A stretch of DNA of 64,000 bases from Eledone cirrhosa (Eukaryota), in assembly GCA_964016885.1 (NCBI GenBank), contig OZ024764.1, positions 5,518,001 to 5,582,000 of the forward strand, given 5' to 3'. A model generated the notes under the pieces. That model saw only the letters and a program-made list of their open reading frames with translations, was not told where the DNA came from and did no database searches. Positions 19,701-19,838 of this stretch are shown here, one piece after another. Positions within the stretch are counted from its first letter, which is position 1, and every line of letters starts with the position of its first letter. Both the position numbers and the translations under genes were made by a program.

Positions 19701-19838
19701 CCACAAATACCCCAATCTTTCACCATTGTGCATACACCTGCTCCTTCTGCCCCACCATCACCTACATACAAGACTACGACCCGTTCCGGTCGGAGAGTCC
19801 ACTGGCCCAAAAAGTTCTGCCAAACTATTTTTATATGA
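16710..19838 (+). CDS. pol: Pol polyprotein: aspartic protease, reverse transcriptase, RNase H, integrase (probably made as a Gag-Pol fusion from 16686)
   Basis: Uninterrupted 1042-aa ORF. Protease [33 protein letters not shown]; RNase [35 protein letters not shown]; integrase zinc finger H..HPG..CIAC; DDE core [26 protein letters not shown] module PYSGPYRV. No chromodomain visible. Confidence 0.98.

What the first reader, a model, noticed from the sequence alone, without database searches (positions are those of the whole stretch)
19773..19820. Integrase C-terminal tail resembles the CENP-C/KNL2 CENP-A-nucleosome-binding motif
Seen: after the GPY/F module and a Pro/Thr-rich linker (HTPEPQIP...[10 protein letters not shown]), Pol ends [21 protein letters not shown] with no chromodomain. 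Known (recalled, not searched): the CENP-C motif (human ..TKRTRLKPLEYW) and the KNL2/M18BP1 CENPC-like motif (SRSGR....[P/S]LEFW) use an anchor Arg on the H2A/H2B acidic patch and aromatic residues at +8/+9 on the CENP-A tail. KSHV LANA uses RLRSGR on the same patch. Here the R of SGR has P at +5 and F at +8, the same spacing, but C replaces the conserved W at +9. Inference: a tethering peptide that could steer integration to nucleosomes, possibly centromeric ones, consistent with the location in a satellite. Caveat: TRSGR-x-V-x-x-P tails are common in Gypsy integrases and may be generic acidic-patch binders.
Basis: partly seen in the sequence, partly recalled or inferred. Interest (0 to 1): 0.8.

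Follow-up and report, generated by a model that had tools for sequence, protein, structure and literature searches.

The report
Conserved nucleosome-tether tail on retrotransposon integrase
The integrase of this LTR retrotransposon ends in a short motif shared across its whole clade that is predicted to grip the acidic patch of ordinary nucleosomes and also matches a phosphatase (PP1) docking pattern, but the family's copies are scattered along the chromosomes, so it likely does not steer insertion to centromeres.

Summary
The tail is real: Pol of a young CsRn1-type Gypsy element (window 15023-21076, identical LTRs) ends [21 protein letters not shown] after a disordered linker. It is not special to this satellite copy: 102 of 121 related Pols carry the motif. 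None has the CENP-C tryptophan at +9; the conserved hydrophobic residues are V at +2 and W/F at +4.

The centromere reading fails in this genome. At least 150 copies are spread along the chromosomes. Only 1 of 30 scored flanks starts in a tandem array, against 13 of 40 random sites. The 46-bp satellite is essentially one 159-kb array (1828 of 1981 matches).

The nucleosome half of the idea gains support. A complex model puts R1037 in the H2A E61/E92 pocket (0.64, best control 0.03), but peptides are outside that tool's calibration and likeness to solved complexes may drive the pass.

New here: the same residues form an exact PP1 RVxF pattern (108 of 121 tails; W or F, never Y); binding is untested.

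Verdict: probably a clade-wide generic nucleosome tether, possibly doubling as a PP1 dock, not a CENP-A reader. My searches found neither motif reading in print.

The parts
19779..19808 (+). Conserved tail motif [10 protein letters not shown] (Pol residues 1033-1042)
   Evidence: conservation
19791..19793 (+). R1037, predicted arginine anchor in the H2A E61/E92 pocket
   Evidence: R in 79 of 79 rows of A2
19791..19805 (+). RRVHW, exact match to the PP1-docking R-x(0,1)-V-x-[FW] pattern (residues 1037-1041); binding untested
   Evidence: pattern from PMC10698503 section 10
19686..19772 (+). Pro/Ser/Thr-rich variable linker (residues 1002-1030), modelled as disordered
   Evidence: pLDDT below 50 over 1002-1034
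16683..19838 (+). pol open frame, 1051 aa stop to stop: PR, RT, RNase H, integrase with GPY/F, no chromodomain
15865..16698 (+). gag open frame (stop to stop) with DUF7041 and the CX2HX9CX3C (CHCC) signature at 16618-16671; overlaps pol in the -1 frame with G GGA AAC at 16686-16692
15023..15422 (+). 5' LTR, 400 bp, TG...AA, preceded by target-site copy GACC
15424..15441 (+). Primer-binding site; tRNA-Trp type by recall, not tested against a tRNA
20677..21076 (+). 3' LTR, identical to the 5' LTR, followed by target-site copy GACC; purine tract just upstream
1..15022 (+). 46-bp satellite, left part of a 159-kb array (G000 C25:5458649-5617345)
21077..64000 (+). 46-bp satellite, right part of the same array

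Best explanation
The motif is a clade-wide tail of CsRn1-type integrases that likely acts as a generic chromatin tether, with R1037 predicted to dock in the H2A/H2B acidic patch of any nucleosome, and this copy's place in a satellite is likely chance. Shown: the tail sits after a variable linker, is nearly invariant across Pols 47-89% identical, lacks the CENP-A-reading tryptophan, and the family is dispersed. Predicted: residues 1030-1043 lie on the acidic patch, R1037 against H2A E61/E92 and H2B 104-108, R1034 against H2A E64. Inferred: the flexible linker would let the integration complex hold a nucleosome while the catalytic core engages nearby DNA, giving broad, non-centromeric insertion, as the arginine anchor of foamy virus Gag does.
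For: Motif in 102 of 121 Pols, a median of 13 residues before the end. In alignment A2 (79 rows) T1033, G1036 and R1037 are at 100%, R1034 96%, V1039 97%, P1042 96%, while no linker column from 1002 to 1030 has a residue above 40%. Linker pLDDT below 50. Complex model with host H2A and H2B: score 0.64, best of 3 controls 0.03; runs agree in at least 84% of contacts; partner pLDDT at least 60; the mark was reached by 51 of 78 solved complexes and 2 of 108 mismatched pairs; the interface is the acidic patch. Dispersal: 114 of 150 matches lie on C1-C4 and are compatible with uniform (KS p 0.12-0.68). Flanks start in a tandem array for 1 of 30 copies versus 13 of 40 random sites (Fisher p 0.002). 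1828 of 1981 genome-wide satellite 17-mer matches lie in this one array. Precedent: foamy virus Gag R540 binds the patch and its loss sends integration to centromeres (PMC12125541, passages).
Against: No binding was measured. The complex tool states that peptides and disordered chains are untested in its calibration and that a pass may come from memory of solved complexes (LANA, CENP-C and KNL2 peptides on nucleosomes); its controls were unrelated proteins, not scrambled basic peptides, and the alignment was not used. PMC10606924 (passages) warns that sequence likeness to CENP-C does not guarantee the same contacts. The LANA analogy points to the other arginine (R1034) as anchor. The strict V at +2 and W/F-never-Y at +4 are better explained by PP1 docking. 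Existing copies reflect retention as well as targeting, centromere positions are unknown, and 5 of 6 matches on C8 cluster in 28.9-33.7 Mb.
Confidence: 0.5

Rival explanations
1. The tail is conserved wholly or partly as a PP1-docking RVxF motif (RRVHW) with basic residues upstream; integrase would recruit host PP1 to dephosphorylate itself or target chromatin. This can coexist with patch binding on different subunits of the integrase multimer.
For: Pattern [RK]-x(0,1)-[VI]-x-[FW] in the last 45 residues of 108 of 121 Pols, background 0.025 per 45 residues. Among 102 motif-bearing tails: V 100, I 1 at +2; W 73, F 27, Y 0 at +4. Of 18 variable aromatic columns in A2, 16 swap F/Y with no W; only 2 swap F/W with no Y, one being this site. 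PMC10698503 section 10: architecture Rx0-1VxF, V strongly preferred over I/L, basic residue preferred at -1, no Pro inside the core. Yeast Ypi1 uses a V-R-W variant (PMC6506691, passages). One nematode Pol (P0012) keeps an RVxF match without TRSG. The motif lies in a disordered region.
Against: No binding test or model (the one complex job went to histones). It is one inherited motif, not 108 independent gains. RVxF is short and many matches do not bind (Hal3 example). It does not explain the invariant T, G, upstream R or P at +5. The residues after W are basic, not the acidic ones of the Nipp1 reference. That Y is not tolerated at the F position is recalled, not read in a call. In the histone model V1039-W1041 are part of the interface.
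Confidence: 0.25
2. The tail has a non-histone role: a nuclear-import signal, a basic target-DNA contact, or a strand that packs on another integrase subunit in the intasome.
For: Basic cluster (R1034, R1037, R1038, K1043, K1044). The monomer model gives short strand bridges and a helix at 1043-1049. GPY/F-region DNA binding is cited for this clade in PMC2582038 (passages).
Against: Motif pLDDT is only about 51-52 in the monomer model. Invariant T, G, V, W/F and P are more than a plain basic patch needs. The histone model passed its controls. Multimers were not modelled.
Confidence: 0.2
3. One reading: the tail mimics the CENP-C/KNL2 motif and steers insertion into CENP-A chromatin.
For: Same R/P/aromatic spacing as KNL2 R527/F535 (10.1101/2022.06.24.497480, passages); the model uses the same anchor register; this copy lies in a satellite; Tal1 integrase C-terminus targets CENH3 through an R/K site (PMC11735389, passages); a cluster on C8.
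Against: W at +9 in 0 of 102, aromatics at both +8 and +9 in 1 of 102, Leu commonest at +8. The tail stops at +14; KNL2 D544 (+17) reads the RG loop. The ten copies with an identical 112-residue end include three on C3 at 153.6, 219.6 and 358.2 Mb. Flanks are depleted of arrays. The satellite is one locus with one insertion. Even true CENPC motifs alone did not target centromeres in plants (PMC11879092, passages).
Confidence: 0.05

Closest known systems
CsRn1 clade of Ty3/Gypsy elements (CsRn1, PwRn1, AgCR; PMC2582038)
   Same: CHCC Gag, 4-bp target-site duplication, GPY/F module, no chromodomain, -1 overlapping gag and pol; named homologs come from flatworms, a nematode, a mite and a sea urchin.
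   Different: The passages read describe GPY/F and the lack of a chromodomain but no terminal motif; no tree with reference elements was built here.
Prototype foamy virus Gag chromatin-binding site (R540 anchor; PMC9040877, PMC12125541)
   Same: Short arginine-anchor peptide on the acidic patch in a retroelement, an aromatic four residues after the anchor, broad rather than centromeric integration.
   Different: There it is in Gag and shown by crystal structure and mutants; here it is at the end of integrase and only predicted.
CENP-C motif and KNL2/M18BP1 CENP-C-like motif
   Same: Anchor Arg with an aromatic at +8; predicted contact with the same H2A pocket.
   Different: No W at +9, no segment reaching the RG loop, conserved V at +2 and W/F at +4 instead; the family is not centromere-clustered.
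KSHV LANA N-terminal peptide
   Different: The LANA anchor is R9 (PMC9040877), which corresponds to R1034 here, not the modelled R1037; LANA's M6/L8 hydrophobic contacts have no counterpart before the motif.
PP1 RVxF docking motif (Ki-67, RepoMan, Nipp1, Ypi1)
   Same: R-x(0,1)-V-x-[FW] in a disordered region with basic residues before it.
   Different: Followed by Pro and basic residues; no binding shown; no report for a retrotransposon integrase found in my searches.
Tal1 (Ty1/Copia) centrophilic integrase C-terminus (PMC11735389)
   Same: Integrase C-terminal region with a key Arg can set target preference.
   Different: Different superfamily; Tal1 insertions follow CENH3, these copies are dispersed.

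Membership tests
CsRn1 clade | Gag CX2HX9CX3C (CHCC) signature | tested here: met
   window 16618-16671; definition PMC2582038
CsRn1 clade | tRNA-Trp primer-binding site | tested here: inconclusive
   A PBS follows the 5' LTR; its tRNA identity is recalled, not matched to a tRNA
CsRn1 clade | 4-bp target-site duplication | tested here: met
   GACC here; 6 of 7 full-length LTR pairs examined have matching 4-bp flanks; an eighth, short pair was not informative
CsRn1 clade | GPY/F module, no chromodomain, no env | tested here: met
CsRn1 clade | Monophyly with reference elements in an RT/RH/IN tree | not tested
   no reference sequences held
CENP-C / CENPC-k motif | Anchor Arg on the H2A/H2B acidic patch | tested here: inconclusive
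   predicted only
CENP-C / CENPC-k motif | Aromatic at +8 | tested here: met
   F1045; aromatic in 61 of 102 tails
CENP-C / CENPC-k motif | [quoted passage not shown] | tested here: not met
   C1046; W in 0 of 102; definition
CENP-C / CENPC-k motif | Downstream segment contacting the CENP-A RG loop (KNL2 539-553, D544) | tested here: not met
   tail ends at +14; median 13 residues after the anchor
CENP-C / CENPC-k motif | Preference for CENP-A over H3 nucleosomes | not testable with these tools
   the complex job held H2A and H2B only; the host CENP-A was not securely identified
Centrophilic retrotransposon | Copies clustered at one region per chromosome or enriched in satellite arrays | tested here: not met
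Arginine-anchor acidic-patch binders | Arg inserted in the H2A E61/D90/E92 pocket | tested here: inconclusive
   model places R1037 with E61 and E92; no measurement
PP1 RVxF motif | R-x(0,1)-V-x-[FW], no Pro inside the core | tested here: met
   RRVHW; 107 of 121 tails with strict V; definition
PP1 RVxF motif | Lies in an accessible disordered region | tested here: met
PP1 RVxF motif | Binds the PP1 hydrophobic groove | not tested

The most novel reading that the evidence does not exclude
CsRn1-clade integrases across animal phyla carry a composite 10-residue switch: an arginine anchor for the nucleosome acidic patch overlapped by a PP1-docking RVxF motif, so that the integration complex both grips chromatin and brings host PP1 to it, like a miniature RepoMan or Ki-67.
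Probability: 0.15. Interest if true: 0.78.

Novelty: new variant of a known kind. Interest (0 to 1): 0.45.

Why it matters
How chromodomain-less Gypsy integrases reach chromatin is, to my knowledge (recalled), largely open. A ten-residue motif that is nearly invariant across a clade makes this testable with one synthetic peptide. If it binds the acidic patch, the arginine-anchor tether known from foamy virus Gag, LANA and IE1 also exists on LTR-retrotransposon integrases, and a few substitutions toward a CENP-C-like core could be a route to centromere targeting in other lineages. If it binds PP1, it would be a retrotransposon integrase recruiting a host phosphatase through a docking motif. The centromere claim for this element is not supported, and the element itself is an ordinary young member of a known clade.

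Tried and rejected
Centromere targeting: rejected on dispersal, flank content and the single-locus satellite.

Searches for CENP-C or KNL2 likeness with the 30-residue tail found none: 0 PDB hits at E<=10; no usable Atlas hit; 3 hits among 1.84 billion representatives, two of them ends of related integrases and one a 5384-residue protein without the motif. A 30-residue query has little power, so these blanks are weak. No profile of homologous tails was built, so profile scoring against CENP-C or KNL2 peptides remains open.

Host CENP-C (PF11699) and KNL2 (PF09133) were not found in G000; the search is exon by exon and the SANTA control rang nowhere, so this is uninformative. A divergent H3-like exon (59% to host H3) may be CENP-A, but its best PDB hits are H3; it was not used.

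The monomer model of Pol did not fold the tail confidently onto the protein.

Four look-ups in earlier findings returned nothing.

Paper searches for prior description: integrase + acidic patch + retrotransposon + CENP-C gave 1 unrelated listing; TRSGR gave 21 listings, none on retroelements by title; five-term tail/nucleosome search gave 2 reviews, not read; RVxF + retrotransposon + integrase gave 1 paper whose single mention is a yeast host protein; Gypsy + PP1 + motif terms gave 0.

Full report
OBSERVATION. Window 19773-19820 reads [16 protein letters not shown], and Pol ends QTIFI at a stop at 19836-19838. It belongs to an LTR retrotransposon at 15023-21076 with two identical 400-bp LTRs, a GACC target-site duplication and a primer-binding site, a gag frame with DUF7041 and a CX2HX9CX3C signature, and a 1051-residue pol frame in the -1 frame. 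Pfam finds RT, RNase H and integrase domains and no chromodomain at E<=1. These features match the CsRn1 clade as described in PMC2582038 (passages); the tRNA-Trp identity of the PBS is recalled, and no tree was built.

THE MOTIF IS CLADE-WIDE. A search with residues 730-1051 found 3004 proteins and listed 120. Because the scored region included the tail, the list leans toward tail-bearing proteins. Of 121 sequences (query plus 120), 102 have the strict motif in their last 80 residues; most of the 19 others are truncated or fused, and seven carry a relaxed form. In an alignment of 79 of them chosen for having a tail (A2; pairwise identity 47-89%, median 59%), T1033, G1036 and R1037 are invariant, R1034 96%, V1039 97%, W or F at 1041 97%, P1042 96%, while no linker column from 1002 to 1030 has a residue above 40%. 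An AlphaFold2 model of Pol gives pLDDT below 50 for 1002-1034 and about 51-52 for the motif. An invariant short word after a disordered linker is the anatomy of a linear binding motif.

IT IS NOT A CENP-C MOTIF. In chicken KNL2, R527 binds the acidic patch, F535 and W536 bind the CENP-A tail, and D544 contacts the RG loop (10.1101/2022.06.24.497480, passages). Among the 102 tails, W at +9 occurs 0 times, any aromatic at +9 three times, aromatics at both +8 and +9 once; +8 is aromatic in 61 and Leu in 38. The tail ends at +14, before the position of D544 (+17). The conserved hydrophobic positions are +2 and +4. True CENPC and CENPC-k motifs alone did not reach centromeres in plants (PMC11879092, passages). 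Searches with the 30-residue tail found no CENP-C or KNL2, a weak negative. A tail profile was not built, so profile scoring remains open.

THE FAMILY IS NOT CENTROPHILIC. The window lies on contig C25 of a 3.0-Gb animal genome. The last 112 residues matched 150 places (all 150 scored of 3084 candidates; 84-100% identical) on 17 contigs. The 114 on C1-C4 are compatible with uniform placement (KS p 0.38, 0.68, 0.24, 0.12; at most 3-5 per 10 Mb, simulation P 0.11-0.95). The ten with an identical end include three on C3 at 153.6, 219.6 and 358.2 Mb, two on C2 and two on C25. I fetched 3' flanks of the 40 closest other copies; 10 were dropped because no LTR end was found. Of the 30 scored, 1 starts inside a tandem array (period 10 or more, 300 bp or more) and none in the 46-bp satellite, against 13 of 40 contig-matched random stretches (controls on C17 and C18 were drawn from only the first 18 and 11 Mb); mean tandem cover 0.10 versus 0.35, Mann-Whitney p 0.0014, Fisher p 0.002, or 0.009 with this copy added. 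Independently, the 30 best LTR loci form 21 sites by my grouping, 2 of which abut arrays, one being this copy. The satellite itself is one 159-kb array: 1828 of 1981 genome-wide matches to a 17-mer lie in it, and it has a single interruption over 700 bp, this element; the other 153 matches were not located. Against this reading: centromere positions and mono- or holocentricity are unknown, fixed copies reflect retention as well as targeting, and 5 of 6 matches on C8 cluster in 28.9-33.7 Mb.

ACIDIC-PATCH TETHER. Host H2A and H2B were folded with tail residues 1019-1051. Score 0.64, best of 3 controls 0.03; the mark was reached by 51 of 78 solved complexes and 2 of 108 mismatched pairs; runs agree in at least 84% of contacts; partner pLDDT at least 60. 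The confident interface is H2A 57-68 and 88-94, H2B 47 and 104-112, and tail 1030-1043. By hand numbering these include E61, E64, D90, E91 and E92: R1037 lies against E61 and E92, R1034 against E64, V1039 against D90 and E91. The canonical anchor pocket is E61/D90/E92 (PMC9040877, passages). Limits: peptides are untested in the calibration, like complexes are solved so the pass may be from memory, the controls were not scrambled basic peptides, and no H3 or CENP-A was present, so +8 and +9 were not tested. PMC10606924 (passages) notes that likeness to CENP-C does not guarantee the same contacts. The closest functional precedent is foamy virus Gag: its R540 anchor binds the patch, and losing it sends integration to centromeres (PMC12125541, passages), so a generic anchor fits dispersed insertion.

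A SECOND READING: PP1 DOCKING. RRVHW matches Rx0-1VxF, with V strongly preferred, basic residues preferred at -1 and no internal Pro (PMC10698503, section 10 read; Ki-67 and RepoMan examples in PMC5005033, passages; a V-R-W variant in yeast Ypi1, PMC6506691, passages). The pattern is in the last 45 residues of 108 of 121 Pols against 0.025 per 45 residues elsewhere. Position +4 is W 73, F 27, Y 0 of 102. Of 18 variable aromatic columns in A2, 16 exchange F and Y without W; only two exchange F and W without Y, and this is one. That Y is excluded from RVxF is recalled. Against: one inherited motif, a short pattern with known non-binding matches, no account of the invariant T, G, upstream R and P, and no test here.

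MECHANISM AND ODDS. Most likely (0.5) the tail is a generic nucleosome tether: shown are conservation, a disordered linker and dispersal; predicted is patch docking through R1037; inferred is that this holds the integration complex on chromatin. PP1 docking as the main or an added role 0.25; import, DNA or intasome role 0.2; CENP-A targeting 0.05.

COMPARISON AND NOVELTY. The element is an ordinary young CsRn1-type copy. The tail works like known arginine-anchor peptides if the model is right, and fails membership of the CENP-C motif family. Tal1 shows that an integrase C-terminus can target CENH3 (PMC11735389, passages; PMC12859917, passages), and satellite arrays are invaded by many transposon types (10.64898/2026.09.17.752431, passages), but this family does not behave so. 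Five searches aimed at prior description found no paper on this motif, on patch binding by a Gypsy integrase tail or on an RVxF in one; PMC3522557 (passages) mentions RVxF only for a yeast host protein. The library lacks most subscription papers, and I read no supplements; Supplementary Discussion 4 of PMC11735389, on integrase C-termini, may bear on this. Four look-ups in earlier findings were empty.

VERDICT. Observation confirmed; interpretation partly supported. New variant of a known kind; interest 0.45. Most novel reading, a composite patch and PP1 motif: probability 0.15, interest 0.78 if true.

Noticed in passing
window 15023-15422 and 20677-21076: LTRs end TG...AA rather than TG...CA; 24 of 30 scored copies end in the same five bases. 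The two LTRs are identical, so the insertion is very young.
   Followed up: partly
window 16686-16692: G GGA AAC in the gag frame where pol overlaps in the -1 frame: a likely frameshift site.
   Followed up: partly
window 20235-20372 and 19856-19880: A CAG/CAA-rich degenerate repeat and a (TA)n run in the long 3' region between pol and the 3' LTR; the CAG-rich tract is longer in some copies.
   Followed up: no
G000 C8:28.9-33.7 Mb (L113, L117, L122, L130): 5 of 6 family matches on this 60.6-Mb contig cluster here, one inside a 30/95-bp tandem array. Unexplained; could be retention in a repeat-rich region.
   Followed up: partly
L086:2002-2232 (-), G000 C8:25229004-25229231: Exon of a divergent H3-like gene, 59% identical to host H3, no loop-1 insertion, ending two residues after the fold. 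Candidate CENP-A, unconfirmed.
   Followed up: partly
L006/L007 (C28:65.31 Mb) and L020/L023 (C28:116.25 Mb): Pairs of LTRs only about 1.3 kb apart with 3'-region sequence between them: short deleted derivatives or rearranged copies.
   Followed up: no
L010/L009 (C2:101.18-101.19 Mb): Full-length copy whose two flanks do not share a 4-bp duplication.
   Followed up: no
L032, L037, L039, L040 (C25:5.44-5.71 Mb): The 46-bp array is neighboured by other arrays (72, 48, 51 bp, and an 83-bp unit with a 330-bp higher period).
   Followed up: no
L138-L177: 13 of 40 random stretches start inside a tandem array and mean tandem cover is 0.35: the genome is very rich in tandem repeats.
   Followed up: yes
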